Source: Amoebidium appalachense
Taxonomy: Eukaryota > Protista > Ichthyosporea
Direction of reading: 5' to 3'
NCBI GenBank assembly: GCA_963693365.1
Contig: CAVNZM010000011.1
Coordinates: 5,165,921 to 5,229,920, forward strand
Length of the DNA stretch: 64,000 nucleotides
The position numbers were made by a program, and so were the translations under genes. Numbering within the stretch: position 1 is the first letter of the stretch; every line of letters starts with the position of its first letter. This document shows, piece after piece, positions 1,070 to 52,876 of this stretch. Under the pieces are notes generated by a model. The model was not told the DNA's origin. It saw only the letters and a list, made by a program, of their open reading frames with translations, and did no database searches.

Positions 1070-1909
1070 GGTGTGTGTGTGTAGAAATGGGGGTGCAAAG
1101 CGAAAAATCAGTAAAAGGCGACCTAACAAGCGACTTCAAAGCCTTTGATGTTGACACTACAGAAGGTGTGTGAAAGTGACACCCTATCAGCTGTGCCGTG
1201 CCCTTAGAAGCCAATTCCCAACTGATGCTGACGAAATGATATCCAGTCACGCGTTTGATTGGGAGAATGCTTTCAGATCCAGATCACCAAACTGCACGAT
1301 TGGCTGCTGGGGATTGGATCACACCCAATTCAAGATCCAATCAGATCCCGCGAAGAGCAGGCAATGCCAGTGCTTCAAGATTTTTCAATGACAGCTGATG
1401 GCTTTTTCTCTTCTATCCCTTAGAACCAAACATAAGAATAAAATCAAACGTTTTATACCTAATTTCATATTCAAGATAGTTTTATAAACAATTCGGTCAC
1501 ATTTCAAACAGAAATCGCGAAGAAATAGTCCTTTCAACGATTACAAACAGATTCTGAAACCTTGGTCAGGATCTTGAACGCTTTCGACCAATCAGATCGA
1601 ATAGCGGGGTAGCCAACTGCGCGCTGCTTTGGCCGTTTATTGGCACATCTGGCGCTGCTTTGGAACGAAGTTGTGGTTCCGCGTTGCCTGTTCCGGGGCC
1701 TGGGGGGGGCGCCTGTGGCACACAGACCCGTGAGACCACTGTGCCATCCGTGCCTCGCGTGCCCCTCATGCCCCCAGGCCCCGCTCCTAGGAAAAAGCAA
1801 TCGGCGAACAGGGTCCACCCCCGGCACCTGTTCTCCAAGGATCCGGGAGACATGGTTGGGGATGCCATGGTGTTCTCTTGGGTTCCGGGAGACATGGGGG
1901 GGACCGGCG

Positions 1910-2449
1910 ATGCTGTTCTCTAGCAAATCACGGGCCAAACGTTCATGGGCACTGCCGTGTTCTCTCTGGTTTGTGGAGAAATCGGTGGACTGGGTAGGGG
2001 GCGGGGGGCAGGAGAACAGGGTGGTGAACAGGGTGGTGCGCTTTGCGCTTCCCGCAGGCTGCAGTCATCAGTACCTTGCACCGTTCAAGATCGAAGAGGC
2101 TCTCAAGCGTCTGTTCGAAAGGACACGCACCGAACTCCAAGGCTGCAATGACGTTCTCGGTGCCATACAGGTGGCCGCCCGTTTCCTCGGGGAGTTCCTC
2201 TACATCCACCCGTTCAGCAACGGCAACGGGCGCGTCGCCCGTCTGTTGGTCAGCGTGCTGATATCGCCCTATATTGCCGTTCCCCTCTCGTTGTACACAG
2301 ACCGCAGCTCCCGCGAGCGCTACCACTCGCTGCTGCTGGCCGCGCAGAGCCAGCCGCCCCCCCACGACTACTCCGAGCTGGCGGCCTTCGTGCTGGACTG
2401 CGCAAGGGCAAACCTGGTCTCGGTGTGCAACGCCCTGGATTTGGAATGA
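1910..2449 (+). CDS. Fic/Doc-family (Fido) domain protein, N-terminus uncertain or truncated
   Basis: FLGEFLYIHPFSNGNGRVARLL matches the Fic motif HPFx(D/E)GNGRxxR with N at the acidic position. Protein-like sequence starts at ~2058 after a possible acceptor CTTCCCGCAG; the first nearby in-frame ATG is 1910. Confidence 0.8.
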   Translation: MLFSSKSRAKRSWALPCSLWFVEKSVDWVGGGGQENRVVNRVVRFALPAGCSHQYLAPFKIEEALKRLFERTRTELQGCNDVLGAIQVAARFLGEFLYIHPFSNGNGRVARLLVSVLISPYIAVPLSLYTDRSSRERYHSLLLAAQSQPPPHDYSELAAFVLDCARANLVSVCNALDLE

Positions 2450-3543: not shown

Positions 3544-5070
3544 TCAAGCCTTAGCAATGGCTCTTGGGCATAATATATAGCAATCTGCCTTCGCGCTGGT
3601 ACCGGTTGGGGGGTGGTATGGCCATCTGCAGATGTTTGCTTCCAGTGTAGTCTTCGGCTTGCCCAGAATTTTCCTGATAGCCATCCCAAAAGTCCGGTTG
3701 CTTGGCAGTTTTGTGTCTCGGGCATTGATCTTGTGCCAAGCTTGGTACAGCTGAAACAGGCCTGTAGGGGTAACAGCACAGCCGCTGTAAATGAAGTCAA
3801 ACTCCTCACAGCCATTTGTGTGAGAGATGAGGTCCTTGAGAAATTGAGCCTCGTCGCTCCGGCTAATCGATTTGATGTTCATCTTTGTGTCGTTATCCAT
3901 AGGCCTGGGCATTGTTTGGGGGATGTCTGGCATGTTCATGAAGTCGTGGTAAATTGCTGCCAATACGTCAGGACGTCTGTGATACTCCACAAAGGCCTCG
4001 AAATATTTGTGGTCACCAATCCGTTCCGGACTGACCCCAAAACATGCCCATCGCCTATCACTGGTCTCCACACGTACAGGCCAATCTTCGTTAGACAAGA
4101 CAACATATCGCTCATACGAGTTGGTGTTGATTGCATCACATCCTTTCTTCTCCAACATCATGGTGGGCTGTGTAATGCGCGCCTTCATTAAGTTGTTAGT
4201 TTCGTGTGAACCACCCCACGTCACCTCGTCGCACAGCACAAGAAGTTTGTTTGCAATGTGCTGGTTGAACTTTCCCGACATGTGCTCCCGGTGAATGACA
4301 TAGGCGTAGTACTCTGGTGAAAGGATGTCCATGATTGCCTGCCACCACACGTTCTTTCCGGTTCCTTGTTCAGATACAAACAGCAGTGCTGTACCTGGTT
4401 TGCTTCCAGGGTACTGAAACAGGTGGGCAACCCACATCCGCAGATAACTGTACTCGTCTTCCCGGTTGTTGCACAGAACCCTTCTGGCATGCTCGTGGAA
4501 CGAGCTGGTCAGGTCTTGACGCAGACAGTACTCTGGGTCAAAATTGAAACGGAGTCCTCGATAGATATTGTATGGACGATAGACCGAATCGGTATTGTCT
4601 GGCTTTCGTTTTCCGGTTTTGGGGTCAGGATCAGCTGGGTCAAAGATGATCTTGGTGTAGATGGGGATTGCGGTTGTTTTTAAGATTTCTGTCCCATTAA
4701 TTGGAGGTTGGGGCTTCCATTGTTTTCCAACCTTCATGTTTGGCTGCCGAAATGAAAAGAGTGAAAGTGTTGCATAGATTTCCTGCTTGCTGACGATCTT
4801 TGCAACATGCTGTTTAATCTCATGGTCAAATGTTTTCAGGACAAATAGAGTTGTCCCGCTGATGTGTGCAACATTGGCGCCTATGAATTCCTCCACCTCC
4901 TCTCTCGCCCACTCTCTGAATTCGCAGGTCGCTGGGTTCATCATCAGCCCCCTATAGGCATCAGCCCCGAGATACTCAAATGCTTCAAAGCGCTCTTTGC
5001 TTCTCTTTCTGATACGCTCTTGATCGATGCCAAACATTGTCTCTTGTCCAGTTTGTTGGTGTGTCTGCAT
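3544..5070 (-). CDS. SF3 / D5-like primase-associated helicase (DUF5906 / NrS-1-like C-terminal helicase), 508 aa
   Basis: Walker A SEQGTGKN, Walker B LLVLCDE, motif B' EKKG, motif C VVLSN, arginine finger SDRRW; preceded by WVAHLFQYPGSKPGTAL typical of this family; probable C-terminal winged helix (LFQLYQAW...SNRTFGMAI). Confidence 0.9.
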   Translation of the reverse strand: MQTHQQTGQETMFGIDQERIRKRSKERFEAFEYLGADAYRGLMMNPATCEFREWAREEVEEFIGANVAHISGTTLFVLKTFDHEIKQHVAKIVSKQEIYATLSLFSFRQPNMKVGKQWKPQPPINGTEILKTTAIPIYTKIIFDPADPDPKTGKRKPDNTDSVYRPYNIYRGLRFNFDPEYCLRQDLTSSFHEHARRVLCNNREDEYSYLRMWVAHLFQYPGSKPGTALLFVSEQGTGKNVWWQAIMDILSPEYYAYVIHREHMSGKFNQHIANKLLVLCDEVTWGGSHETNNLMKARITQPTMMLEKKGCDAINTNSYERYVVLSNEDWPVRVETSDRRWACFGVSPERIGDHKYFEAFVEYHRRPDVLAAIYHDFMNMPDIPQTMPRPMDNDTKMNIKSISRSDEAQFLKDLISHTNGCEEFDFIYSGCAVTPTGLFQLYQAWHKINARDTKLPSNRTFGMAIRKILGKPKTTLEANICRWPYHPPTGTSAKADCYILCPRAIAKA

Positions 5071-5175
5071 TATTAGTATTGCTGAGAAAATATTTACGCA
5101 GGGACACTGCTGGAAAATACTGAATTTTCTGCCTTTTATACCCTTGGGGTTGGGGCTGCCGGGTCCAGAAAACTC

Positions 5176-5670
5176 TCAATTTTTCGATGCGTCGCCCTGG
5201 AAAATGTTGAACGTCCGGCTATGGGTAGACGTGTAACGCGGGTTGCGAACGCCAGTCTCGGGATCGGGGTCGTTGCGGTCGAAGACGATGCCACCGTGGT
5301 AAACGACCATATGACTGCTGTCCAAGTGCCACGATCCCTTGTATATCTTTATCTTCTTGCCTGTCGGGTTGTATTTGAACTTGTACTTGGACAGCATGTC
5401 GGCCACATTCTTCTTCGACTTGATCTCGAAGACGAATCTCCCATCCTTGAAACGCTTGAAGATGTACGCACCGTCCGGGTGGGAATATGCCACCAGAGTA
5501 CGGCAGAACGTATGAATCTGCTCCTCCGTCCACTCGTGTTGCTCAACGATGTCCGCGTCCAACCAGTTGTTGCGAGTGCCTGTTGTCCTCTCAAACTCCT
5601 CGTATGCTGCAAGCTTGAGCTGCTCGTTCTCGGACATACCCGTTGCTATCTTCATGTACAGATCTTCCAT
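5176..5670 (-). CDS. Short paralogue of the helicase N-terminal domain (164 aa), no ATPase
   Basis: IVFDRNDPDPETGVRNPRYTSTHSRTFNIFQG aligns to helicase IIFDPADPDPKTGKRKPDNTDSVYRPYNIYRG; ATG at 5670 with TATAAATA ~60 nt upstream. Confidence 0.75.
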   Translation of the reverse strand: MEDLYMKIATGMSENEQLKLAAYEEFERTTGTRNNWLDADIVEQHEWTEEQIHTFCRTLVAYSHPDGAYIFKRFKDGRFVFEIKSKKNVADMLSKYKFKYNPTGKKIKIYKGSWHLDSSHMVVYHGGIVFDRNDPDPETGVRNPRYTSTHSRTFNIFQGDASKN

Positions 5671-5731
5671 GTTGTCCGTTGTATATATGGTTAGATAATA
5701 TCTGACGGGTGTCGCCTTGTGTTTGGGGTAT

Positions 5732-6170
5732 TTATATCGGCTCGGATGCTGAACCCACCAGCTCGGGGTGCGCGGCTCTGACATGGCAGTTGAGCGCAGC
5801 CGACCGGTTGAACGCAGATGTACATCCCACAGACGGACACCTGAGGGTGTTCCGCACAGGCTGTTTTGGCGTCTTGTTTTCCTTGTGGACTAAGCGCCGG
5901 TGCCACCACAGTGCGGCAGGGTACGGGGAAGTCGGCCGGGCACGTGTCACAGACGTATGGCCGCTCACCGGTATGCATTCGCACATGCAGCTTCATGTAA
6001 TCGCTGCGGGTAAAGGTAGCAAAGCAGCCTTCATGGGGGCACGTGTAAGGGCGTTTCTCGGAGTGTGTTGCGGCACGGTGTCTTTTCATGCTTGCGTTTG
6101 TGGTGAACGTTTGGGCACAGTCGGTGCATGGAAATACTCTCTTGTGTGGGGGTCTGCATGGTTCAGCCAT
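5732..6170 (-). pseudogene. C2H2 zinc-finger gene (4 fingers) with a 1-nt frameshift
   Basis: Fingers 1-2 and half of finger 3 in ORF 5691..6170; remainder (PYPAALWWHRRLVH...CPSVGC...HVRAAH) in ORF 5732..5986. Removing one base from the G4 run at 5925-5928 restores CDTCPADFPYPAALWWHRRLVH. Confidence 0.8.
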
Positions 6171-10931: not shown

Positions 10932-11010
10932 CACGGTGAAAAAAGGGGCCGCTATTAGAGAGTAGCCTCAGGCTATTCTAGTGCTTGTGTGCAGGTGTAC
11001 TTAACATTGA

Positions 11011-12195
11011 GTGTACTTAGGGTGGGGCTGTGCAGACGTGTACTTAAAGGGTGGGGCTGTGCAGACGTGTACTTAGGATGGTGCAGACGTGTACTTAAAG
11101 GGTGGGGCTGTGCAGACGTGTACTTAAAGGGTGGGGCTGTGCAGACGTGTACTTAGGGCTGTGCAGAGGTGTACTTAGGGTGGTGCAGAGGTGTACTTAG
11201 GGTGGTGCAGAGGTGTACTTAGGGTGGTGCAGACGTGTACTTAGGGTGGTGCAGAGGTGTACTTAGGGTGGTGCAGAGGTGTACTTAGGGCTGTGCAGAG
11301 GTGTACTTAGGGTGGTGCAGAGGTGTACTTAGGGTGGTGCAGAGGTGTACTTAGGGTGGTGCAGACGTGTACTTAGGGTGGTGCAGAGGTGTACTTAGGG
11401 TGGTGCAGACGTGTACTTAGGGTGGGGCTGTGCACCACAGTGTACTTAGGGTGGTGCAGACGTGTACTTAGGGTGGGGCTGTGCACCACAGTGTACTTAG
11501 GGTGGTGCAGACGTGTACTTAAAGGGTGGGGCTGTGCAGACGTGTACTTAGGGCTGTGCAGAGGTGTACTTAGGGTGGTGCAGAGGTGTACTTAGGGTGG
11601 TGCAGAGGTGTACTTAGGGTGGTGCAGACGTGTACTTAGGGTGGTGCAGAGGTGTACTTAGGGTGGTGCAGAGGTGTACTTAGGGCTGTGCAGAGGTGTA
11701 CTTAGGGTGGTGCAGAGGTGTACTTAGGGTGGTGCAGAGGTGTACTTAGGGTGGTGCAGACGTGTACTTAGGGTGGTGCAGAGGTGTACTTAGGGTGGTG
11801 CAGACGTGTACTTAGGGTGGGGCTGTGCACCACAGTGTACTTAGGGTGGTGCAGACGTGTACTTAGGGTGGGGCTGTGCACCACAGTGTACTTAGGGTGG
11901 TGCAGACGTGTACTTAGGGTGGTGCAGAGTGTACTTAGGGTGGTGCAGAGGTGTACTTAGGGCTGTGCAGAGGTGTACTTAGGGTGGTGCAGAGGTGTAC
12001 TTAGGGTGGTGCAGAGGTGTACTTAGGGTGGTGCAGACGTGTACTTAGGGTGGTGCAGAGGTGTACTTAGGGTGGTGCAGACGTGTACTTAGGGTGGGGC
12101 TGTGCACCACAGTGTACTTAGGGTGGTGCAGACGTGTACTTAGGGTGGGGCTGTGCACCACAGTGTACTTAGGGTGGTGCAGACGTGTACTTAGG
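11011..12195 (+). repeat. 22-bp minisatellite GGTGTACTTAGGGTGGTGCAGA (~50 units) with variant units and higher-order repetition
   Basis: Directly visible; variants GGGGCTGTGCACCACA and AAAGGG recur in ~400-bp blocks. Confidence 0.95.
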
Positions 12196-12600
12196 TGGGT
12201 GTCTTGTGGTGAAAGTAAAGTTTATGGCATACAGGCAGATGTGTGCTTTAAGCCTTAGGGAACTGTGGGCAGACATGTCAACACTTGGGCCTATGGGTAG
12301 ACGTGTACACACTTAGTGTATTTGTTTGTGTCTCTCATGGTTATTTTATAGCATGAAGCACTGCAAAAAATGGTGTATGTTTCCGTGGTCCACGTACACA
12401 GAATCCTTTAATATGAACACAAGTGATTGTATAGAAAAAGAGTACGTACGTACATGATAGTCTAGTCAGATTACAAAGAACAAATCAACTTGGACCGAGT
12501 ATATTCAAATACAAACTAAAAGAGAAAAGAAACAAATAAATCAAGACCGATCAATTCAAATACAAATCAAAAGAGAATGCCACTTAGTCGACCAATCAAA

Positions 12601-14048: not shown

Positions 14049-14257
14049 ACGTCTAAGCTTGATGAAAACAAACCCGTGGCTGCTAACCATTGGCTGTGTA
14101 TAGATCTAACCAAAAAAGGAAGGCACAACAAATTAGTGCCCTGCACACGGAGCATGACTATAGGCTGTTTAGACACCACACGTGTAGGGCACTGCCTCTT
14201 GGCACCAACCAGAAGAGGGTAGAAATTGTGCCCTGCACACGGAGCATGACTATAGGC
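14049..14257. repeat. Right arm of ~210-bp inverted repeat (partner 8650-8859)
   Basis: ACGTCTAAGCTTGATGAAAACAAACCCGTGGCTGCTAACC... is the reverse complement of the 8650-8859 block. Confidence 0.92.
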
Positions 14258-14737
14258 TGTTTAGACACCACACGTGTAGGGCACTGCCTCTTGGCACCAA
14301 CCAGAAGAGGGTAGAAATTGTGCCCTGCACACGGAGCATGACTATAGGCTGTTTAGACACCACACGTGTAGGGCACTGCCTCTTGGCACCAACCAGAAGA
14401 GGGTAGAAATTGTGCCCTGCACACGGAGCATGACTATAGGCTGTTTAGACACCACACGTGTAGGGCACTGCCTCTTGGCACCAACCAGAAGAGGGTAGAA
14501 ATTGTGCCCTGCACACGGAGCATGCCTATAGGCTGTTTAGACACCACACGTGTAGGGCACTGCCTCTTGGCACCAACCAGAAGAGGGTAGAAATTGTGCC
14601 CTGCACACGGAGCATGCCTATAGGCTGTTTAGACACCACACGTGTAGGGCACTGCCTCTTGGCACCAACCAGAAGAGGGTAGAAATTGTGCCCTGCACAC
14701 GGAGCATGCCTATAGGCTGTTTAGACACCACACGTGT
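14136..14737 (+). repeat. 92-bp tandem array, ~6.5 near-identical copies
   Basis: Units start at 14136, 14228, 14320, 14412, 14504, 14596 and 14688; a single GACTATAG/GCCTATAG polymorphism. Confidence 0.97.
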
Positions 14738-14814
14738 TGTGGCTTCTGCCTTTATCACCCACACACCCACACGTGCCAACATACACTATCCTCCCCGTGA
14801 GTGGCATGCCAGTC

Positions 14815-16219: not shown

Positions 16220-17280
<1,061 letters not shown>

Positions 17281-20723: not shown

Positions 20724-22276
20724 ATGGCAGCGGCTGGCAATCCTCCCGCTTCTTTCCCTCCGCAAGATCCAAACGACCCCTTCTTGTTTTCGGATGATGA
20801 AGATCTAGACGACATCATGTTTGGCGAGGTTGATGTTGATGTCACAAGAGAATCCGCACGGTTGCTTGGCCAGATACGACAATAGGGTTTTGTTTGGTAC
20901 CTAGTGTTATCGCCATGAACGAGTGCCTTGACATGGTTGCAGACCCAACCCACCCGCGCATCAAGAAAATGGAGCAACACGACCTGGACAAAGGTGAATC
21001 ATGCCCAGACACACTCTATGTTGAGTTCAAGTCAAGCGTTCCCATGATCAAATGGAAGGCTAAAGCGGAGGAGCTTTTCGCCAACACCAAGCAAGCGCCT
21101 ACGAATGGCAGTGTGGCTATGCGCAGTTGGATTAACAACACCCAGTTTGCTGATGTTTCGTTCATCCTGTCCTCAACGGGCGAGAAGATATACGCACACA
21201 AGGTCATTCTTGCCGCCCGCTCGGAGAAATTTGCGGCCATGTTTCGCTTTCACGACCTTGCCACACCGGGACAGGTCTCTTCCTTACACATCGATTGCAA
21301 CGAGGTGGTAGTGTTTCATGCGCTCCTCGAATTCCTTTATACAGAGACCACATCCTACGACACACGTCATGCGCTGATGAAGCTACCAGGGAAACATGGC
21401 TACCAACATCTACTCGTTTGGCGAACGAATATGGGTGCCCAGACCTTGTGTCGCTGTGTGAGGGATCGGTTACGAGGGAGTTAGGCGTGGAGGACAGGGG
21501 GAGAGATTATTATGGTGTGTATGAGAGGAACCATGAGGAGAAAAACCAGGCGAGGGACCGAATGATGAAGGAAAACGTGGTGCAAGCTCTCAACCTACTT
21601 GCCTTTGCAGATAGACACATTGCACCCCGACTTCGCTCTTACGCACTGTATATTCTTCTTGCGAACACGCACTACACCAAGTTCTTTTTGGGCGACGAGG
21701 AGGCAGTAGCAGATGTGTTTGGAGGCGAGGATGGTGGGGAAAGCGATGCTGTTTTGGGGGAATTGAAGAGATTGGTTACGTTGGTCCCGGATGATGTGAT
21801 GGCTGGAACATGGACAACCACGGCACTTGATCAGGATCGACCTGTCTGTCCCCCGGAGGAACTATACGTCACACATCCCGAATTCTCACCCGTTCACGTC
21901 GACGAGAAAGAGGCGGAGAAAAATCGCGCGAAAGATGGTAGAGGAGGAGGGCAGCACACGTGAAATGCTTCGGGCCATTCTGCAGTTGGATGCGAATCGG
22001 GGGTTTGGGCATTTGCAGGAAGCGAGTGACCTGGATTGCAGCATGAGAGCGGAGGTGATTCCCGAAACATGGCAGGTTCTAAAAACGGAAGCACGTCTGA
22101 TGAGCTATGACACCGACGGGATCTGGGCAGAGGAGGAGGAGGAGGAAGATCAGTGCGACGTATATGAGGAGGCAATTAATGAGTGGCGGGTGAACGATGT
22201 GAAAAGGAAGATTGTGGGGGCGCTGCAAATGAAAAAGGGAGGCACTCCGTGTGAATTAATAGAGGGAGGGGCGGGG

Positions 22277-24994: not shown

Positions 24995-36875
<11,881 letters not shown>

Positions 36876-41075: not shown

Positions 41076-43592
41076 TTTCTGACACGCAGTTACAAAAGTG
41101 CTGTACTATGCTAGTGTTGTGGTCAGTAATGAAGGCCAATGCTACCCCGAGCATCACGTGCTCACACCAGCTACCTAACCCTACACAGTTACACCCAAAC
41201 AAAGGCCCAAGCTACTCAGAAACACTTATTTAGTTGAAAAGAAAGTGGTTTGTGCCCGTTTATTACGTAGAAAACATGTCTGAAGGGTTTTGGCCCGCAG
41301 CTCATGAGAGCTCACATTTCACGTTCTGGGTATCGGAGAAGCGCCGTTTTTTTTTGCCGTTGCAGGCCTGAGTGCCAGTAACCGCCCCACCCATTTCCCC
41401 GCCCATATTCAAACAAAACCAATGAGAAAAAACGCACAAAAAAAGAAAATAACCAAGTATGGGATCATAAGTTTCTCACGATTTACAGGTCTCTCACGAT
41501 TGGCGGCGCGGGCCCGGACCCGGCCCGGCCCGCCGTTTTACACGCTGAGCCCTTGTTAGCCCCAAAAAGTGACCTTTAGATCCATGCGCAGCTGCCTTAT
41601 ATAATATGATCTGAAACTTTTGTCCAATGAAAATCGTTATCGCTCCCAATTTGGAAAGTGACTTTCGGGCCAAAAAGCTACCTAATCGGTCGCTAAAACG
41701 GTTTGGGTCTCTGCACGGTAGTATACCCGTGACTACTGAACCGGCCCGTATGAAAGGGATAGATATACGCGGCAGCGTTTTGATTCCTTTGACAACTTCA
41801 TGCCGAGTGAAGGGAGTACTTGCTTGTGTACTTACCCCCCCCAAATGAAAATTTTTGTGTTTTTCAATTTTAAGGTTTGGGCATTTCAGGGGCTGAACAA
41901 ACTGTAGCCCGAACTCACCACACCACACACACACAACTTCTTTGCAGTGTACAGCAGTTCCCGTAAAGTTTCTCGTCTGTGCTTAGGGGTTTAGCACACA
42001 CGCCATACACCGGCAACACCAGCACGCTTAGCTATAAGGACGCCTGGGGCAGGGACTTTAGCGCTAGTCCACTAGATCCATTCTAGACCACACAGTAGAT
42101 AGGGGGGTGTGGTGACGGCCTCCCCAGGCCTCACCCCTCTTTGGTGTAACTGCTGTTGGCTGAGCACCTTATAGCATAGCTGGTTTTACACGGTCTGCTC
42201 TTGTACACCTACACACACCGACACACAACATAAGTATACGAAAATACAGTGAATACACTACAAAATACACCACCTAGATCTCCTGGGCCAATCATTGAGA
42301 GACTTCCGGCAGTGTCCACGCAATAAAAAGTGTGTAAACCCCCACTTACCAGAGAATCTTCAAAACTTTAAATTTGATATTGTAGATCCGGTATCACATA
42401 CAGCCGCACACTGGCCGCTGACGCCGTACATATAAGAAGTTTTTGCTTACCTGATATTCATGTTAACACAAAGATGAAATCACAAAATAGAAAGCATGTG
42501 TACATGTACACATGTGCATCATGTGCATGCCTGACTGATCATGCATAGACTTGTGCGCCGTCCAGGGTAGGAGGTCTTGCACAGGGGCACGCACATCATG
42601 TGGGCCGTGGACGTCATGTCCCGTGTACTTATGACACATATACACATGTGCACTGCATACGCATGAATCCGACTAGAGCATTGGCACATGCGCATGTAAA
42701 TGTATCATGAGATTCATAGCATTGTGCATGCGACTATCTATCATCCATTCTTAGATATGAATCATTATTATGAAGTCGGTGAGATATATTTGAGATAACT
42801 ACATTTCAGAAAAAGAGATGAAATTGTGAGAAAGTATTACGCATGCTGATCAACGTCCCACTTTATGTGTGCGTCTGCATGTGACCGCCGCGGGGCTCAC
42901 GCCCATCATCAGTTGGGCCGTGCTAACCTGTTTGTATGTACGTGAAACGGGCCCATTTATGATACCTGGAGCACGTCCATATGTACGTGAAACTGGCCCA
43001 TGTTTGATTCAGCGGGCCCCGGGGGAACACGTCCATTCCAACTTCAAAACCTGCTCACGTTCGATAAGTCTTGCGTCAATCGCATGTTTCGATTAAAGAC
43101 CAAATATGGCTACACTTAAACAGTACCAATCATTGCACTTACATTTACGTACAAAGAACTGATTGGCTAAGCCATACAGAGACTAACCAATCGGAATTTT
43201 GAAAGTAGCTGGCAGTTCGAATTCCACATGTCACTTCGTCGTCGTGGCTGCGGCCGGGCCGTTCCTCAAAGAAAACCCGTCTAAGAACGAACCATTCTCG
43301 ATGCCCTTGCCAAGTTGCCATATGATGAGTCAAGGCTCGGGAATCACGTACACCCAGGTACTTGTCCGGGAATGTGTTTAGGGTGAACACCAAATAAAAT
43401 AAGCCAATCAAAGCCCGTTAAATAAAAACGACTCATTCTTTTCTTAAAGTTGCACAGATCTGGATGTAGATCTAAAAAAAAATTGTCACACGCAGTGCAA
43501 ATTGAGCCAATTTCGCTAGTAGGCTAAAGGAGCTACGAAATCAATTATAACATCGTTTTCTTAGTTGCTTCATTTTTATTAAACCAAGTAGT

Positions 43593-44054
43593 TGTTGGAA
43601 GTAGAGTCCGCTGTGACTAGGGTCGTCGTGGCGCGCTTGGGCGCTGACCCGTTTTTTACTGCTTTCAGTGTGTTAACTCCATGACTGAACTCCATGAATA
43701 ACTCCATCACTGAACTCCATGACTAACTCCATGACTGAACTCCATGACTGAACTCCATGACTTAACTCCATGACTGAACTCCATGACTGAACTCCATGAC
43801 TTAACTCCATGACTGAACTCCATTTCTGCACCTGGCAGAGCCGTGGTTTATATACCCGTGGGGCAGCAGTCTGGAATGTAATCCGGATGCCAGGCGCTAA
43901 TCGGATTGGTTACTTTCATTTAGAGATCTCTGGGACCAGTGAACCAATCGTTTGCAGTCAAAACACAATTGGCAACATTCCTCAACTATGCAGATGTGCA
44001 TGTGGTGATCGAGTGTCAGCGTGTGTCTGTGTACACGGAACCAATTGTAAAGCT
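43593..44054 (-). repeat. LTR-A, partial copy lacking its first 44 bp
   Basis: Same length (462 bp) and same diagnostic variants as 49168-49629. Confidence 0.92.
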
Positions 44055-44819
44055 TGTTGGACATTGTGTTCATAGAAGCTAGTTCTAGTGCACGTTGTTC
44101 CTTCTGTAAGTCAGAAATGATTGCATCTTGTGAGGCCAACCTCTGCTCCAGTAGTTGGACTAGTTGCTGCAACTGTAAGTTGTCAGACATAGTGTCGTGT
44201 ATGATGGGTAACTAGTCTATGTGTTTTGTGCACTGGAAACGACAGTAGAAAAGTGTAAATCAAACGTTCTGCTTCCCATGTTTGTGACATGGGAGGCACT
44301 GCTTTATATAGTCGTTGGCCACCTCATGGTGGCCTCGTGTGCACCCTGGTGGTGGGCCATGTACAGCATGGCCGAAAAGAGAGCACAATGAAAACAAGTC
44401 GTTAAAGATATAAAAGTTAACTGTGCACGTTGAGTGGCTAGTTAACTTGCACTAAAGCACACAAATAAACGTGTTTAACACACCAATTGCAGTTAAACGT
44501 AAATCTTGCTTCACACAACTAAAAATATTCTGAGAATATCCGGGAATAAAGCACACTACCACTCTAAGAATAGAATCCTGTGGCAAATATAGACATGACA
44601 TCATCTGAACCGGGAATATTAATTAATGAGCACAATTAGCACGTTGCTAGTGAAGCTCGTCATTGGTACAGTTTTGGCTCAAACATATAACTACCATATA
44701 TGAATATGACCGTAAACAAAAGCTCTATGCACTCGAGTGAGTGTTGAAACAGTTATTCAATTGCTCAGAAACTTTCTCTAACAGACATTGCTAGCCGGGA
44801 GTACCAGTGTACTCCAACA
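44055..44819 (-). repeat. LTR-B (765 bp), 3' copy
   Basis: TGTTGGAGTAC...TGTCCAACA on - strand; preceded by GAGTAGGGG; matches 50600-51136 plus 52327-52554 (537+228=765 bp). Confidence 0.92.
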
Positions 44820-45005
44820 CCCCTACTCAATTGGATAATTGTGGTATGAATTAATGCAACTGAGCTCGAGTGCTTCAGGTGCACAAAATACAGACAATAA
44901 AGATTCCCCTACTCAATTTTAGTATGGTACACGTAGTTGCACAGTCGGATGCAACTCTCTCCCCCCCCCTGAAGTATGAGGGCGCAGTTGGTTGATGACG
45001 GGTGC

Positions 45006-48000
45006 TCAGCACATGTTGAGCATCCCCACGGCCTTGGTGAAGAAAGAGGCAGACAGGGCCTTGGTGAACATGTCGGCCTTGTTGTCAGCAGAAGCCACCG
45101 GGACCACAGTGATGTTGCCCAGCAGGTGATGTTCCTTGACGGAGCAGTAGCGGACGTCGATGTGCTTGGTCTTGGGCTTAACCCCCAGGGTGTCCAGCAG
45201 GGCCCGGGCAGACTCATTGTCCCCATGGATGGGCACCGGGGTGGGCTCATTGATAGGATTAAGGCCCAGGTCGTCCATCACATAGTTGAGCCATAGGGCC
45301 TCGTTCGTAGCAGCAGACATGGCCACAAATTCAGCCTCAGTGGAGCTGTGGGTGGTGATGGACTGGAGCCGAGACACCCAGGACACAGGGGAGGAGTTTA
45401 TGAAGAAGACATAGCCCGTGGTGGAGCGCCGGGTGTCGCGGTCCTCGGCGTAGTCGGAGTCGGAGTAGCCAACAAGGTTGGGGGGGCCGGGACGGTAGAC
45501 AATACCCAGGTCGATGGTGGCCAGCAGGTAGCTTACAACTCTGGTAGCCATAGTCCAGTGGGTGACGGTGGGCGCATGAATGTGTCGAGTAAGGACTCCC
45601 AGAGCCTGGGAAATGTCGGGGCGGGTGGTACGCGCAATCCACAGCAGGGCACCGACCAGGCTGGCATAGTCCTCCTTCTTGCTGTAGGCTGGGGTCTTGT
45701 TGCTTTCACTGGCCTGGCCCGGGACGATGGGGGTCTTGGTGCCGGACATGTGGGTGAGACGAAAACGGGCAGCCAAGTCGATGATGTGTTGACGATGGCC
45801 CAGACGCAGAGACCCGTCCTCCAGCCAGGTAAGAGTGTGCCCGATGAGCAGGGTAGGACGACCCAGGTCCTTGGCAGAGAAACGAGCATCCAGCTTGGTG
45901 AAAAAATCGTCGATGAGCGCATCAGTGGCGGCCGTCACGGTGAAGTCATCCACGTAGGCAGCAAGGGCAATAAATGTTGGGGTCCCGGCATTCTTGATGA
46001 ACAGGCACGGGTCAGCAGCACTCACAATGAAGCCTTGGTCGAGGAGATGGTCACGGAGGGCCTCATACCACTGGCGCGGTGCCTGTTTTAGGCCGTAGAG
46101 CGCCTTGTGGAGCAAGCCGACAGCATGGGGGGCCGAGGGGTTGACGAAGCCAGGGGGCTGCTCAATGTAGATGGTCTCGTTGACGGTGCCGTTGAGGAAT
46201 GCTGTGTTGACGTCGATGTGGCGCAGAGGCAGACCTTGGGCCACGGAGGTAGCCAAAACCAGCCGGATGGTAGCCAGCGCAGCCACAGGTGACTCGGTGA
46301 CGAAATAGTCCTGGCCAGGCTGCTGGTAGTTGCCCCGGGCCACAAGCCGGGCCTTGAAAGCAGTGACGTTGCCGACGTTGTCCTGCTTGACCGTAAAGAC
46401 CCAGCCGACCGGAATGACAGTGGAGCCATCCTCTGGACGGGGCACAAGGGTGAAGGTGCCGTTGTCTTCCAGGGCCTTGAGCTCACGGTGTGCAGCCTCC
46501 TCCCATTTCAGACGCTGGGGACTCTTGAGTGCAGCCCGGACAGTCTTGGGGACAACAATGGTGGAAGCCTTGATGGGTGTTGATGCAGGAGCCGTAGCCT
46601 GGGGGGCAAGGGGGGCCGTAGCAGCAGCCACGTTGGCAGTCGGGCCTCGACGTTGGTCGTTGTACACAGCGCCACTACGGGTCGTCCGGGGGAGCCGATG
46701 TGCAGGCTCGGGCAGGATCGGAATGTCCAATTGATCACTCGGCGCTGTCCCATTGGCTGACAGACGAGACGAATCAGATTGCTGATCATTCCGGACGATG
46801 TGATTGGCTGGCTGATTTGACGAATCAGATGACTCCAAAAAATGATGAATTGCCGGTGCGGTCGACCAATCAGATGGGACATCACGGAGGGGGTGCAGAA
46901 TAGCAGCCTCGTCGAACTGCACGTCACGGCTGACGGTCATCTTGTGTGCTGCTGGAATCCAGACCTTGTAGCCCTTGATGTTAGGAGGGTAGCCCACGAA
47001 GACGCCCTTGACGGCACGAGGCGCCAGTTTCGGTGTATCCTGTTGATGGACGTAGCAGGGAGAGCCCCAGACACGGAGCCGGCTGTAGTCGGGAGGAATG
47101 CCGGTCCACAGCAGAGCGGGAGACGATTGGCTGCCGGTGGCTCGCGACGGGAGCATGTTGCGTATAAAAGCCGCGGTCACAGCTGCCTCGGCCCAGAATC
47201 CCACCGGAAGGCCGGACTGCTGCAGGAGTGCCCGAACCATGTCGAGGAGGGTCCGGTTCAGTCGTTCGGCAGTCCCATTCTGTTGAGGAGAGCCGGTGGT
47301 AGTGATCTGATGGCGAATGCCATGCTCACGGTTGTAGTCCCCGAAGGCCGTGCCCATGTACTCGCCCCCCCGTCGGACTGAAACACCTGCATGGGAACAC
47401 CGTGTTGGGTAACCGCCGCCTTGTGGTACGTCACATATGCAGCCAGTGTGTCCGACTTCTTGACGAGGGGCACGGCCGTGGTGTGGCCGGTGAATTCGTC
47501 GTGGAACGTCGCCAAGTACTGAGCACCACCGATCGCGGGAGGGAAGGGGCCGCTGATGTCGCTGTGAACCTTGGCTAGGACCCGGGGAGCTTGGCTAGTT
47601 GATTCGGAGAAGGCAACACGGTGGGCTTTGCCGAGGGCACAGGGCTCACACACACCCGGAGACTTGGCACCGCCACCCACCAACAGGCCTGCAGACTTGA
47701 TGACCGAGCGTACAGCGTCAATGCCAGCATGGCCCAGACGGTAGTGCCACGTGTTGAGGTCGGCAGTAACCTTGAGGATACGCGGAGCAGTGGTGGTTTG
47801 GGCGTCCGGGGTTGTGTCCGCGCGCAGAAGAGACACCGCCATGTGGTACAGCTTGGTGCCGACAGCCGAGCCGGTGGCCAGAATTTGATCGCCGTAGCAC
47901 AACTTAACGCCGCCGCGGGTGTCAAAGCGGGGTAAAACACCGTTGGTAGTTGCCGTGAACACACTGATGAGAGTGTCGGGGATGGAGGGCACGTAGAGTA

Positions 48001-49162
48001 CATCCGTCAGCTGATGCACCGCAGTAACGCCGTCGATGGTGCTGGAAAAGAACACGTCGCCCACCCCAAGCACTGCACATGCACCCTTGTCGGCTACTTG
48101 GACCGTGGAGTAAGGCGCCGCACGCATGTTGATGAACACATCGGGCCGGGGGCACACATGGTCAGTGGCTCCAGAGTCGAGGAGCACCTTGTTGGTGCCA
48201 CAGTCGTTGCTAGACATGAGGAAAGCCCGGGGAGCGGCAGCCCCCCCCTTGCACTGTGCCGTAGTGTGGGTAGTAGAGGCAGGGTGGTTGATGCAGGACC
48301 CAGGCAGGAGGGGACCACCCTTAGGTTTGCGGCCGTTGGCACGGTTGCCCCCCTTGCACATGGCGGTAGTGTGACTGGTAGACAGTGGGTGGTTGACGCA
48401 GGAACCCTTGGGGTAGGTGCTGGCACGGTTGTTGCCAGAGTTGCTGTGTTGGCCGTTGCCGTTGGGGCACTGAGACTTGATGTGGCCTGGTTTGCCGCAG
48501 CCGTGGCAGATGACAGGTTGAGGAGCCCGTGTGGTGAAGGCGGCCGGCCCGGAGCTGGTAGTCACACGTGCACGTGGGTGGCTGGTCTCATATGCCCGTA
48601 GCTGTTGGAGGAGGCCCATCACGGTAGGCTTGGGTGTCATCTTGTAGGCAATTACAGGCATTTCGTAGTAAGGCACCTTGCCGAGGTCGTTGGTGAGCTT
48701 GGTCAGCACTTGAGCATCACCAATTTGTGTGCCGTAATCGGCCAGGCGCCGCACGTAGCCGCGGAGTTTCATGGCGTATTTCGTCGCGGTGTCCGTAGGT
48801 TCAGGCGTAGAATTCATGTACAGCCCGATAAGGTCGTACTGATTGGCCTCAGATTGCTCCAGGTAGTGGGCAGATAGGGCCGACCATATCTCCGCAGGTG
48901 TGGTGGTGCGTGTTAACCCTAGGATACAACGCACGTCAATCGAGAGTGCTTGCCACAGGTAGGAACGGGCAGTGTCGACCTGTTCACGGGTAGCCGGGTG
49001 CTCCGTACTGGGCGCGATGGTGTGGAGAAGACCAGCACCAGAAAGCTGGACATACATGGTTTCGGCCCATGTGTGGTAGTCCGTGCCTGAATCATTATCA
49101 ATGCCAGTGAAGAGAGGGATGTCGACCTTGAACTTGATGGAATCATTACGTGAGGGGCCCAT
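45006..49162 (-). CDS. Copia Gag-Pol polyprotein with one frameshift at 47365-47371
   Basis: CCHC knuckle CHGCGKPGHIKSQC; protease LLDSGAT; integrase WHYRLGH/CEPC, HSDISGP, SD(G)GGEY, QQNGTAER; RT FKARLVARG, LYGLKQA, YVDD; RNase H YSDSDYA, STEAEF, KHIDVRY, ADMFTK. Confidence 0.95.
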
Positions 49163-49167
49163 AACCC
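49155..49167 (-). promoter_or_regulatory. Primer-binding site GGTTATGGGCCC (half-tRNAiMet, copia/Ty5 type)
   Basis: Immediately follows the LTR end CCAACA; also at 49961-49975 and 50585-50599 (-) and 51548-51562 (+). Confidence 0.85.
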
Positions 49168-50599
49168 TGTTGGAAGTAGAGTCCGCTGTGACTAGGGTCG
49201 TCGTGGCGCGCTTGGGCGCTGACCCGTTTTTTACTGCTTTCAGTGTGTTAACTCCATGACTGAACTCCATGAATAACTCCATCACTGAACTCCATGACTA
49301 ACTCCATGACTGAACTCCATGACTGAACTCCATGACTTAACTCCATGACTGAACTCCATGACTGAACTCCATGACTTAACTCCATGACTGAACTCCATTT
49401 CTGCACCTGGCAGAGCCGTGGTTTATATACCCGTGGGGCAGCAGTCTGGAATGTAATCCGGATGCCAGGCGCTAATCGGATTGGTTACTTTCATTTAGAG
49501 ATCTCTGGGACCAGTGAACCAATCGTTTGCAGTCAAAACACAATTGGCAACATTCCTCAACTATGCAGATGTGCATGTGGTGATCGAGTGTCAGCGTGTG
49601 TCTGTGTACACGGAACCAATTGTAAAGCTAACATACACATATTGTGGAGTGAGCGTAAGTCTGCACTCCAACACCCCTACCCAATTGGAGAAGTGTACAC
49701 ACCACTAGAGAAGAGAGAGTGAGTGTGGCTACTTGCAGGGTAGACCGGGGTGTGCATTCCACTGTGGTGCTTGCCCCGCCAATGAAGTGGAATACTTGAC
49801 GTTGATGTCGCAGGCTGCTGCGGATGGAGTTTGTGGAAGCGAAAGTCTCTACTTCACGGAAATACGCTCGCGGGTGTAGGGTACAGCCTAGAAGTCGGGT
49901 TCTGGCTCCTCCGTTCAAGGCGTCGTAGGGGACGTGAAGTTAGAGGCCGCGGTGTCGTGTCTGGGCCCATAACCCTGTTGGAAGTAGAGTCCGCTGTGAC
50001 TAGGGTCGCCGTGGCGCGCTTGGGCGCTGACCCGTTTTTTACTGCTTTCAGTGTGTTAACTCCATGGCTGCACTCCATGACTGAACTCCATGTCTGAACT
50101 CCATGTCTGCACCTGGCAGAGACGTGGCTTATATACCCGTGGGGCAGCAGTCTGGAATGTAATCCGGATGCCAGGTGCTAATCGGATTGGTTACTTTCAT
50201 TTAGAGATCTCTGGGACCAGTGAACCAATCGTTTGCAGTCAAAACACAATTGGCAACATTCCTCAACTATGCAGATGTGCATGTGGTGATCGAGTGTCAG
50301 CGTGTGTCTGTGTACACGGAACCAATTGTAAAGCTAACATACACATATTGTGGAGTGAGCGTAAGTCTGCACTCCAACACCCCTACCCAATTGGAGAAGT
50401 GTACACACCACTAGAGAAGAGAGAGTGAGTGTGGCTGCTTGCAGGGTAGACCGGGGTGTGCATTCCACTGTGGTGCGTGCCCCGCCAATGAAGTGGAATA
50501 CTTGACGTTGATGTCGCAGGCTGCTGCGGATGGAGTTTGTGGAAGCGAAAGTCTCTAATGAAGTTAGAGGCCGCGGTGTCGTGTCTGGGCCCATAACCC
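49168..50599 (-). mobile_element. Tandem TRIM units: core' (50599-50380), LTR-A (50379-49976), core (49975-49674), LTR-A (49673-49168)
   Basis: Each core starts with the PBS, ends with the purine tract GGGTAGGGG before TGTTGG and lacks retroelement coding; core' has an ~80-bp deletion. Confidence 0.88.
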
Positions 50600-52554
50600 T
50601 GTTGGACATTGTGTTCATAGAAGCTAGTTCTAGTGCACGTTGTTCCTTCTGTAAGTCAGAAATGATTGCATCTTGTGAGGCCAACCTCTGCTCCAGTAGT
50701 TGGACTAGTTGCTGCAACTGTAAGTTGTCAGACATAGTGTCGTGTATGATGGGTAACTAGTCTATGTGTTTTGTGCACTGGAAACGACAGTAGAAAAGTG
50801 TAAATCAAACGTTCTGCTTCCCATGTTTGTGACATGGGAGGCACTGCTTTATATAGTCGTTGGCCACCTCATGGTGGCCTCGTGTGCACCCTGGTGGTGG
50901 GCCATGTACAGCATGGCCGAAAAGAGAGCACAATGAAAACAAGTCGTTAAAGATATAAAAGTTAACTGTGCACGTTGAGTGGCTAGTTAACTTGCACTAA
51001 AGCACACAAATAAACGTGTTTAACACACCAATTGCAGTTAAACGTAAATCTTGCTTCACACAACTAAAAATATTCTGAGAATATCCGGGAATAAAGCACA
51101 CTACCACTCTAAGAATAGAATCCTGTGGCAAATATAGTGCAGACTTACGCTCACTCCACAATATGTGTATGTTAGCTTTACAATTGGTTCCGTGTACACA
51201 GACACACGCTGACACTCGATCACCACATGCACATCTGCATAGTTGAGGAATGTTGCCAATTGTGTTTTGACTGCAAACGATTGGTTCACTGGTCCCAGAG
51301 ATCTCTAAATGAAAGTAACCAATCCGATTAGCGCCTGGCATCCGGATTACATTCCAGACTGCTGCCCCACGGGTATATAAGCCACGTCTCTGCCAGGTGC
51401 AGACATGGAGTTAAGTCATGGAGTTAAGTCATGGAGTTAAGTCATGGAGTTCAGTCATGGAGTTAACACACTGAAAGCAGTAAAAAAACGGGTCAGCGCC
51501 CAAGCGCGCCACGACGACCCTAGTCACAGCGGACTCTACTTCCAACAGGGTTATGGGCCCAGACACGACACCGCGGCCTCTAACTTCACGTCCCCTACGA
51601 CGCCTTGAACGGAGGAGCCCAGAAACCGACTTCTAGGCTGTACCCTACACCCGCGAGCGTATTTCCGTGAAGTAGAGACTTTCGCTTCCACAAACTCCAT
51701 CCGCAGCAGCCTGCGACATCAACGTCAAGTATTCCACTTCATTGGCGGGGCACGCACCACAGTGGAATGCACACCCCGGTCTACCCTGCAAGCAGCCACA
51801 CTCACTCTCTCTTCTCTACAGTGGTGTGTACACTTCTCCAATTGGGTAGGGGTGTTGGAGTGCAGACTTACGCTCACTCCACAATATGTGTATGTTAGCT
51901 TTACAATTGGTTCCGTGTACACAGACACACGCTGACACTCGATCACCACATGCACATCTGCATAGTTGAGGAATGTTGCCAATTGTGTTTTGACTGCAAA
52001 CGATTGGTTCACTGGTCCCAGAGATCTCTAAATGAAAGTAACCAATCCGATTAGCACCTGGCATCCGGATTACATTCCAGACTGCTGCCCCACGGGTATA
52101 TAAGCCACGTCTCTGCCAGGTGCAGACATGGAGTTCAGTCATGGAGTTAAGTCATGGAGTTAAGTCATGGAGTTAAGTCATGGAGTTCAGTCATGGAGTT
52201 CAGTCATGGAGTTCAGTCATGGAGTTCAGTCATGGAGTTAACACACTGAAAGCAGTAAAAAACGGGTCAGCGCCCAAGCGCGCCACGACGACCCTAGTCA
52301 CAGCGGACTCTACTTCCAACAATATAGACATGACATCATCTGAACCGGGAATATTAATTAATGAGCACAATTAGCACGTTGCTAGTGAAGCTCGTCATTG
52401 GTACAGTTTTGGCTCAAACATATAACTACCATATATGAATATGACCGTAAACAAAAGCTCTATGCACTCGAGTGAGTGTTGAAACAGTTATTCAATTGCT
52501 CAGAAACTTTCTCTAACAGACATTGCTAGCCGGGAGTACCAGTGTACTCCAACA
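50600..52554 (-). repeat. LTR-B, 5' copy, interrupted by a nested TRIM
   Basis: 50600-51136 and 52327-52554 together reproduce 44055-44819; its last 136 nt (50735-50600) encode MSDNLQLQQLVQLLEQRL... Confidence 0.9.
51137..52321 (+). mobile_element. Nested TRIM (LTR-A - core - LTR-A) in opposite orientation
   Basis: LTR-A 51137-51547 (first 7 nt missing), PBS, core 51548-51852, LTR-A 51853-52321; flanking duplication ATATA at 51132-51136 and 52322-52326. Confidence 0.9.
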
Positions 52555-52876
52555 GTAGTTGCATTGGATATTTCCTTAATATTTGAGAGTATATGCCAGT
52601 CTGCAGAATACTTTGGCATCAAGGTGCTTTTTGGCCCGCGGGCCTGGCAGAGCCGGGCCGGAGTCCGCCTGCAAAATTATTGGGCCTAACACTAACTTAC
52701 ACGCGTTCACGGCGGTTGCAATGCATATATTGGGTTGTGTTTAGGTTAATTGTTTGCGTAATATCACCTCTCCTAAGCCTTCCCCTATCTCCCATTTAAT
52801 TCCCGTCCCCCCCAGGGAGGTGGGTGGGGGGAGGGGGGAGACGGGTCTCCAGGGGGGGGGGGGAGATGGGTCTCCA

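What the first reader, a model, noticed from the sequence alone, without database searches (positions are those of the whole stretch)
43593..52554. Copia element carrying a TRIM parasite inside itself: two LTR types, four PBSs, one TSD
Seen, in element orientation: LTR-B - PBS/core' - LTR-A - PBS/core - LTR-A - PBS - gag-pol - LTR-B - partial LTR-A, flanked by a single GTAGT TSD. The integrated DNA therefore began with LTR-B and ended with LTR-A. The two LTRs share only TGTTGGAGT...TCCAACA ends and similar PBS/PPT context. The LTR-A copies at 43593 and 49168 share private variants, implying the chimera itself was reverse-transcribed. Inference: a non-autonomous TRIM recombines into its helper at the shared TCCAACAGGGTTATGGGCCC junction and is mobilised in cis, a helper-satellite system beyond ordinary tandem TRIM arrays.
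Basis: partly seen in the sequence, partly recalled or inferred. Interest (0 to 1): 0.8.

Follow-up and report, generated by a model that had tools for sequence, protein, structure and literature searches.

The report
Hybrid retrotransposon with two different ends
A copia-type jumping gene carries a block of a miniature parasite element wedged in at their shared primer site and ends in that parasite's terminal repeat, likely a one-off copying accident inserted as one piece that cuts the host element's capsid gene off from its own start codon.

Summary
The layout is real in the window: LTR-B, core', LTR-A, core, LTR-A, gag-pol, LTR-B, LTR-A lacking 44 nt, between one GTAGT duplication (chance about 1 in 970). 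The fourth PBS belongs to an ordinary inverted TRIM nested in the 5' LTR-B. LTR-B is the native LTR: gag starts inside it, and all 7 runs laid show the pure B-PBS-gag joint. LTR-A/core is an independent TRIM sharing only the half-tRNA-iMet PBS, the PPT and the LTR tips. The TRIM block sits at the shared 20-nt LTR-end/PBS block and separates gag from its start codon, which argues against a self-mobilising 'cis' satellite. The odd feature is the mismatched ends: B's exact end is fused, without microhomology, to position 45 of an exact copy of the internal LTR-A. Best reading (0.5): two cDNAs primed at different PBSs of one hybrid RNA were joined and integrated as one unit. No second copy was shown; the three internal chimeric joints were neither confirmed nor excluded, because the read tables were cut and no genome was held. 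A new variant of known template-switch and tandem-TRIM chimeras; interest 0.4.

The parts
43588..43592 (.). left target-site duplication GTAGT
   Evidence: sequence; matches 52555-52559; chance about 1/970
43593..44054 (-). A': TRIM LTR-A positions 45-506, exact U5 end at the host junction, first 44 nt missing
   Evidence: 462/462 identical to A3 incl. 12-unit 13-bp array; X3 contig host-to-A', 27 letters on the A side
44055..44819 (-). 3' LTR-B (765 bp), native LTR of the copia element; its exact end is fused to A' position 45 without microhomology
   Evidence: pure B-PBS-gag joint 49167->44055 in 7 of 7 runs laid
44820..44832 (-). polypurine tract of the copia element
   Evidence: sequence; 20/23 alike to the TRIM core end
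45006..47594 (-). pol, second frame: integrase core (part), SH3-like, reverse transcriptase, RNase H region
   Evidence: Pfam RVT_2 E 1.4e-53, SH3_retrovirus 8e-26, rve_3 2.9e-5
47258..49167 (-). gag, protease, pre-integrase, start of integrase; one frameshift in a homopolymer near 47360-47370
   Evidence: Pfam Retrotran_gag_2, zf-CCHC, Pol_BBD, gag_pre-integrs; contigs of 7 of 7 runs differ from the window at this place, so it is copy-specific or an assembly error
49155..49167 (-). PBS of gag-pol, 13-nt match to the anticodon arm of initiator tRNA-Met; lies inside the gag frame (NRVMGP)
49168..49673 (-). A3: full TRIM LTR-A (506 bp) in place of LTR-B directly upstream of gag
49674..49975 (-). 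TRIM core (302 bp) with PPT (49674-49686) and 15-nt PBS (49961-49975)
49976..50379 (-). A2: full TRIM LTR-A (404 bp, 4-unit array)
50380..50599 (-). core': TRIM core with an 83-bp deletion, PPT and 15-nt PBS (50585-50599); the deleted form also exists in runs X3 and X1
   Evidence: joint 49851->49935 at depth 270 (X3) and 17.7 (X1)
50600..52554 (-). 5' LTR-B, interrupted by the inverted TRIM; holds the native Gag start codon at 50735
   Evidence: 765/765 to the 3' copy; B-encoded 50 aa match the N-terminus of relative P0007, 22/51, E 2e-7
51137..52321 (+). complete A-core-A TRIM nested in inverted orientation in LTR-B; ATATA duplication; first LTR lacks 7-8 terminal nt; its two LTRs differ (5 vs 9 array units, 1 substitution, 1 indel); fourth PBS at 51548-51562
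52555..52559 (.). right target-site duplication GTAGT
   Evidence: sequence; this junction was not tested in reads

Best explanation
This is a half-tRNA-primed copia element (LTR-B, gag-pol) with a two-unit block of a TRIM spliced in at the shared primer site and an exact copy of most of the internal TRIM LTR fused to its right end, and it was likely made in one aberrant round of reverse transcription and likely integrated once as a single, probably dead-end unit. Shown: the parts, the identities (A'=A3, B=B), the single TSD, the exact B end and lack of microhomology at the B/A' joint, the native gag start in LTR-B. Inferred step 1: the TRIM block entered at the 20-nt TCCAACA+PBS block common to both elements, by template switches between co-packaged helper and TRIM RNAs or by annealing of a TRIM cDNA's single-stranded PBS tail. 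Inferred step 2: on the hybrid RNA, priming at the first PBS gave a normal B...B cDNA, while priming at the PBS behind A3, with the core PPT in front of it, gave a separate LTR-A3 cDNA with no strand transfer needed. Inferred step 3: the B end of the first cDNA was joined to the trimmed A3 piece (integrase half-site attack or end joining), and the two outer ends, B on the left and A on the right, both ending TG...CA with the same tips, were integrated together and made one TSD. Inferred step 4: another TRIM cDNA inserted into the 5' LTR-B at that time or later. Inferred consequence: the native Gag start now reads into the TRIM core and stops after 133 codons, so the hybrid would depend on intact B-gag-pol-B copies in trans unless an in-frame ATG in A3 is used.
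For: One TSD flanks a B start and an A end. A' is identical to A3 across U3 and the hypervariable array while the three other A copies differ, so it was copied from the same template, across a span that only an RNA running through the whole of A3 offers. The B/A' joint falls on B's last base with no microhomology, as expected of a free cDNA end. Both PBS joints fall in the shared 20-nt block. The nested TRIM has unlike LTRs although it sits in LTR-B copies that are 765/765 identical, and both it and A' have an exact U5 end and a trimmed U3 tip, which fits non-canonical cDNAs being integrated in this system (n = 2). Pure helper and pure TRIM forms exist as parents: B-PBS-gag in 7 of 7 runs, core-PBS-A and A-PPT-core in X8, X12, X1, X15, X19. 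Precedents: co-packaging template switches (PMC1950507, whole text) and PBS-directed cDNA annealing at related elements (PMC11042837, passages).
Against: No donor copy carrying the two PBS joints was shown, and none of the three internal chimeric joints appears in the displayed rows of either lay (the tables were cut by 13 and 15 joints, 215 and 219 loose ends, over 6,700 pieces each). Steps 2 and 3 need several rare events and rest on one locus. In X3 the A3-type letters make up roughly 9-23% of summed depth at three places (a noisy figure, no copy number), so A3-type LTRs may be more common than two copies, which weakens the identity argument. Unlike LTRs in the nested TRIM could also come from later gene conversion and array slippage. 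The canonical mechanism gives identical outer LTRs, which this element lacks.
Confidence: 0.5

Rival explanations
1. Nesting first, copying later: a B-gag-pol-B element inserted by ordinary integration at position 45 of a TRIM LTR-A elsewhere; a read-through RNA was primed at the TRIM PBS behind that LTR, giving a composite B+A' end, and switches at the 20-nt block brought the TRIM array to the 5' side; the product integrated here.
For: Explains the exact B end by normal integrase action and A'=A3 by copying. The family nests in itself: inverted TRIM in LTR-B; in X3, B starts joined to gag-pol positions 46112 and 48732 at depths 39 and 45 (one contig each, sides 27-28, unverified). The TRIM PBS matches the tRNA over 15 nt against 13 for gag.
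Against: Needs about three template switches to leave a pure B on the left. The predicted donor joint (B start to LTR-A position 49; 44819->49625) is not among the 15 displayed joints, although two other joints from 44819 are; 15 more rows were hidden.
Confidence: 0.17
2. Post-insertion history at this site: an LTR-A (solo or TRIM) made the GTAGT duplication, the B-TRIM-gag-pol-B hybrid inserted at its position 45, and a 49-bp deletion between the shared TGTTGGAGT starts of A and B removed the left piece of A; A'=A3 comes from a common subfamily or gene conversion.
For: Each step is ordinary; the 9-nt shared start exists; it explains the exact B end and the TSD; nested insertions and recombination are the bulk of complex LTR structures (PMC1950507 table 1: 20 recombinant complexes, 2 by template switching).
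Against: Needs the target LTR to equal the passenger's internal LTR over 462 bp including a 12-unit array that differs in all three other copies, plus a deletion landing exactly in register.
Confidence: 0.15
3. One reading: the chimera is a replicating lineage in which the TRIM rides inside its helper and is mobilised in cis, Gag-Pol being made from an ATG in LTR-A3.
For: A3 offers two in-frame ATGs and an open frame into gag. X3 shows a pol-to-core joint 46310->49804 at depth 48, which could be a deleted second copy or an independent hybrid, and a B-PBS joint to a third internal sequence.
Against: The native, conserved Gag N-terminus is lost; nine out-of-frame ATGs precede the in-frame ones; in X8, X10, X12, X1, X15 and X19 the listed contig that reaches the gag start goes on into B, not A; the 46310->49804 joint is one contig with a 29-letter side in a run with many low-depth stray joints.
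Confidence: 0.1
4. Misassembly or consensus polishing joined or homogenised repeats.
For: 100% identity of both outer pairs; a homopolymer frameshift not shared by any run laid; internal joints unconfirmed; no long reads seen.
Against: The chimeric joints share only 0-20 nt, too short to mislead an assembler; four A copies keep distinct variants; the TSD matches; X3 holds host flank running into an A end.
Confidence: 0.08

Closest known systems
Template-switching complex LTR insertions (Sabot and Schulman 2007, PMC1950507; whole text read)
   Same: Internal LTR(s), one TSD, origin in co-packaged RNAs during reverse transcription; the paper also names VejuL and BARE2 as products of jumps between different RNAs.
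   Different: There the outer LTRs are alike and the partners are of one family; here the outer ends belong to two unrelated LTRs and one partner is a TRIM.
Tandem-array TRIMs and chimeric TRIMs (Gao 2016, PMC4717578; sugar beet study PMC13570524; Cassandra arrays PMC7215508; passages read)
   Same: LTR-core-LTR-core arrays, mostly keeping a TSD; chimeras with LTRs donated by another TRIM family; TRIMs reported in algae too.
   Different: The passages seen describe TRIM-TRIM chimeras, not a TRIM array inside a full gag-pol element at its PBS.
Integrase-independent, PBS-directed insertion of Tf1 cDNA at Tf2 elements (PMC11042837; passages read)
   Same: cDNA anneals through its PBS tail at the PBS of a related resident element and makes tandem or hybrid elements; a direct model for the two PBS joints.
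   Different: Tf1 and Tf2 share long homology; here only 20 nt are shared; it does not explain the B/A' joint or the mismatched ends.
Hemivirus-type copia elements (Ty5, copia, Osser, 1731; PMC1181622 passages) and anticodon-loop-primed fungal TRIMs (Helenus, PMC10886601 passages)
   Same: PBS complementary to the anticodon arm of initiator tRNA-Met in both helper and TRIM; little LTR homology between TRIM and helper.
   Different: No tRNA-like or 5S-like piece in LTR-A, so not Helenus or Cassandra; no tree with named hemiviruses was built.
LTR swapping between autonomous and non-autonomous partners in soybean (Du 2010; title seen in a reference list only; text not held; content recalled)
   Same: Helper and non-autonomous partner exchange LTR parts by recombination.
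   Different: Recalled as partners with homologous LTRs forming multi-copy subfamilies; here unrelated LTRs and one known copy.

Membership tests
Ty1/copia LTR retrotransposon | gag-PR-IN-RT order with copia-type RT | tested here: met
   Pfam hits in that order, RVT_2 E 1.4e-53
Ty1/copia LTR retrotransposon | TG...CA LTRs, PBS, PPT, 5-bp TSD | tested here: met
   pure form as one closed B+gag-pol contig of 5,043-5,144 bp in X1, X8, X12
Hemivirus-type (half-tRNA priming) | PBS complementary to the anticodon stem-loop of tRNA-iMet | tested here: met
   13-15 nt match to the internal part of a tRNA-Met(i) oligo printed in PMC1797187 (compared by eye; the host's own tRNA was not available); definition
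Hemivirus-type (half-tRNA priming) | priming by a cleaved tRNA shown biochemically; placement among named hemiviruses | not testable with these tools
   no reference sequences or assays at hand
TRIM | short LTR pair, non-coding core with PBS and PPT, own TSD | tested here: met
   A-core-A at 51137-52321, 1.19 kb, ATATA duplication, no Pfam or Rfam match sought beyond; pure form in other runs; slightly above the 1-kb size quoted
Helenus / Cassandra TRIMs | tRNA-like or 5S-like sequence in the LTR | tested here: not met
   ARAGORN 0 genes; Rfam 0 matches to E 1 over 43500-52700
Template-switching complex insertion (Sabot and Schulman) | one TSD and internal LTR(s) | tested here: met
Template-switching complex insertion (Sabot and Schulman) | outer LTRs alike | tested here: not met
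   left end is LTR-B, right end LTR-A; no similarity beyond the tips
   no genome; read tables cut; chimeric joints not displayed
   native start in LTR-B is separated from gag; one frameshift, possibly an assembly error

The most novel reading that the evidence does not exclude
In this half-tRNA-primed family, TRIM arrays routinely splice into the helper at the shared primer site, and priming at internal PBS/PPT pairs yields cDNAs whose two ends come from unrelated LTRs, which the helper integrase accepts; helper-TRIM hybrids with mismatched ends are then a recurring, heritable product (the pol-to-core joint and the third B-PBS partner in run X3 being further cases), and the TRIM both hitch-hikes and disables its helper by decapitating gag.
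Probability: 0.18. Interest if true: 0.7.

Novelty: new variant of a known kind. Interest (0 to 1): 0.4.

Why it matters
It is a rare direct physical link between a TRIM and its helper when their LTRs share no homology, a pairing that papers call unknown for many TRIMs. The minimal shared signals (9-nt and 7-nt LTR tips, PBS, PPT) are read straight off the sequence. If the one-unit origin holds, an integrase accepted ends from two unrelated LTRs, and the rule that a new insertion has identical LTRs fails, which matters for LTR dating and for annotation tools. As one apparently dead-end copy its biological weight is modest.

Tried and rejected
No whole genome is held, so the genome-wide catalogue could not be made. 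The look-up of sequencing runs listed 24 runs, 20 holding part of the stretch; no RNA holder listed; 7 of the 24 were laid, all as contigs. Two lays were set up to show the chimeric joints; the tables were cut and the joints were not displayed, which is neither support nor refutation. X8, X10 and X12 give no cover of the unique host flank next to A': no conclusion on an empty site. X19 is only guessed to be RNA; its high depth on LTRs and TRIM against gag-pol is not used. The 20-nt junction motif found 1 metagenome contig (L001) with no other likeness to the window, 0 viral and 0 prokaryote contigs: the motif is not private to this pair. No pol relative in viral contigs. Host group not determined: named RT relatives are only about 31-40% identical (green algae, plants, an oomycete, an arthropod) and a BTB fragment found no relative. 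No tRNA or Rfam match. Rejected: LTR-A as the native LTR (its frame matches P0007 only at NRVMGP); plain tandem double insertion (no TSD between B and A'). Literature searches for a TRIM inside a helper with two different terminal LTRs gave no direct report (0 papers; 45: 1 unrelated; 46: 6 listed, only the sugar beet study relevant; also 13, 40, 47); the library lacks most subscription papers and no supplements were read, where such single structures may be listed.
Full report
Observation. In element orientation (minus strand): LTR-B (52554-50600), PBS-core'-PPT, LTR-A2, PBS-core-PPT, LTR-A3, PBS-gag-pol-PPT, LTR-B (44819-44055), LTR-A positions 45-506 (44054-43593), between GTAGT at 43588-43592 and 52555-52559. 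A 5-mer match has a chance near 1 in 970. No other copy of these parts lies in the window.

The helper. The coding region is copia: gag, zinc knuckle, protease, integrase, RT, in two frames with one frameshift in a homopolymer near 47360-47370 that the contigs of all 7 runs laid do not share. The PBS matches the anticodon arm of initiator tRNA-Met, not its 3' end: 15 nt in the TRIM core, 13 nt before gag, compared by eye with an oligo printed in PMC1797187 (one passage). That is the Hemivirus mode (PMC1181622, passages). The closest protein found, P0007 (86% over the RT-RNase H query, unnamed Logan record), starts with about 50 residues that match a frame beginning at the ATG at 50735 inside LTR-B (22/51, E 2e-7) and running through the PBS as NRVMGP; the frame from LTR-A matches only that motif. 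So LTR-B is the native LTR and gag starts inside it. Independently, the joint 49167->44055 (gag-PBS directly on LTR-B) is present in 7 of 7 runs laid, from six named studies and one unnamed; X3 may be the assembly's source. In X1, X8 and X12 LTR-B plus gag-pol is one closed contig of 5.0-5.1 kb.

The TRIM. LTR-A (404-506 bp, with a 13-bp array downstream of a TATA box) and the 302-bp core share with the helper only the tips (9 and 7 nt), the PBS and 20 of 23 nt at the PPT. The pure form is shown by the nested copy and by core-PBS-A and A-PPT-core contigs in X8, X12, X1, X15 and X19. The deleted core' also occurs in X3 and X1, so it is a TRIM variant, not damage at this site. No tRNA-like or 5S-like piece was found. 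The 20-nt LTR-end/PBS word also occurs in an otherwise unrelated metagenome contig, so it is a constraint of this priming mode, not proof of co-evolution.

The joints. Two lie in the shared 20-nt block (B/core' and A3/gag): the net effect is a TRIM block inserted at the helper's PBS. In the hybrid the native Gag start reads into core' and stops after 133 codons; gag can only be entered from two in-frame ATGs in A3, behind nine out-of-frame ones. The third joint falls on B's last base and A position 45 with no microhomology. A' equals A3 over 462 nt, array included, while A2 and the two nested LTRs differ by 4-5 letters and carry 4, 5 and 9 array units instead of 12. The nested TRIM's own LTRs differ from each other although it lies in LTR-B copies that are 765/765 identical.

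Reads. One X3 contig runs from the host flank into A' with no other letter at depth 48.5, but with 27 letters on the A side, below the tool's bridging rule. The internal chimeric joints are in none of the displayed rows; the tables were cut, and contigs drop rare forms, so this is inconclusive. In the six other runs the listed contig at the gag start continues into B, so the chimera is not the main form there. X3 also shows, each on one to three contigs with sides mostly under 30 letters and therefore only as leads: a pol-to-core joint 46310->49804 (depth 48), B starts joined into gag-pol (46112, 48732), head-to-tail A-A joints (depths 60 and 118) and B-PBS followed by a third internal sequence. 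Against my reading, A3-type letters are 9-23% of summed depth in X3 at three places, a noisy figure that leaves room for more than two A3-type copies.

Mechanism. Ordinary reverse transcription makes identical outer LTRs (PMC1950507, whole text), so a B-left/A-right unit needs something else. I favour (0.5) one aberrant round: the TRIM block joins the helper at the PBS by template switching or PBS-tail annealing (precedent PMC11042837, passages); priming at the first PBS gives a B...B cDNA, priming at the PBS behind A3 gives an A3 cDNA; B's free end is joined to the trimmed A3 piece; the outer ends integrate together. The parts and identities are shown; every step of this order is inferred. 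Rivals: earlier nesting of B in an LTR-A elsewhere followed by read-through copying (0.17); nesting here plus a 49-bp deletion between the shared starts (0.15); a replicating cis lineage (0.10); misassembly (0.08).

Comparison with what is known. Tandem-array TRIMs are common, also in algae (PMC4717578, passages; PMC7215508, passages); TRIM-TRIM chimeras are reported (PMC13570524, passages); tandem LTR elements with one TSD are common (PMC11899658, abstract and discussion; bioRxiv 10.1101/158386, passages); recombination during reverse transcription is reviewed in PMC6894440 (passages). My searches found no report of a TRIM array inside a full helper with two unrelated terminal LTRs, but the library is partial and I read no supplements. 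Unchecked notes of this scan describe copia-TRIM fusions at a shared PBS in other genomes; they are leads only and, if right, make such fusions a recurring accident.

Verdict. A real-looking, unusual hybrid that ties a TRIM to its helper and has mismatched ends, but one copy, with gag cut from its start and no shown mobility. New variant of a known kind; interest 0.4. The bold reading, recurring mismatched-end hybrids as a regular product of internal priming, has probability about 0.18 and would merit 0.7.

Noticed in passing
window 3544-5889 (-): ORF of 543 aa with DUF5906 (E 6e-20) and a weak VapE-like hit, a D5-like primase/helicase type, preceded by a 237-aa ORF in another frame; may be part of an endogenous DNA virus or Polinton-like element.
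   Followed up: no
window 1613-2449 (+): Fic/DOC domain ORF (E 4e-11) next to the DUF5906 gene.
   Followed up: no
window 20840-21484 (+): BTB/POZ domain exon (E 1e-13); no relative found among longer proteins.
   Followed up: partly
window 51137-52321: Nested TRIM with unlike LTRs and one end short by 7-8 nt despite a clean duplication; like A', exact U5 end and trimmed U3 tip.
   Followed up: partly
run X3 laid on window 49673/49976 and 49674/49167: Head-to-tail LTR-A/LTR-A joints with 1-3 letters between, like 2-LTR-circle junctions, at depths 60 and 118.
   Followed up: no
run X3 laid on window 46310/49804 and 44055: A pol-to-TRIM-core joint at depth 48 and LTR-B plus PBS followed by a third, unknown internal sequence; LTR-B depth is about 8-10 times gag-pol depth in X10, hinting at solo LTRs or a B-type non-autonomous family.
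   Followed up: no
L001 252-271: Same 20-nt LTR-end/PBS word in an otherwise unrelated metagenome contig.
   Followed up: partly
window 11010-12199, 14130-14751, 16640-17280, 25060-25480, 33046-33780: Long minisatellite and microsatellite arrays, several sharing a unit.
   Followed up: no
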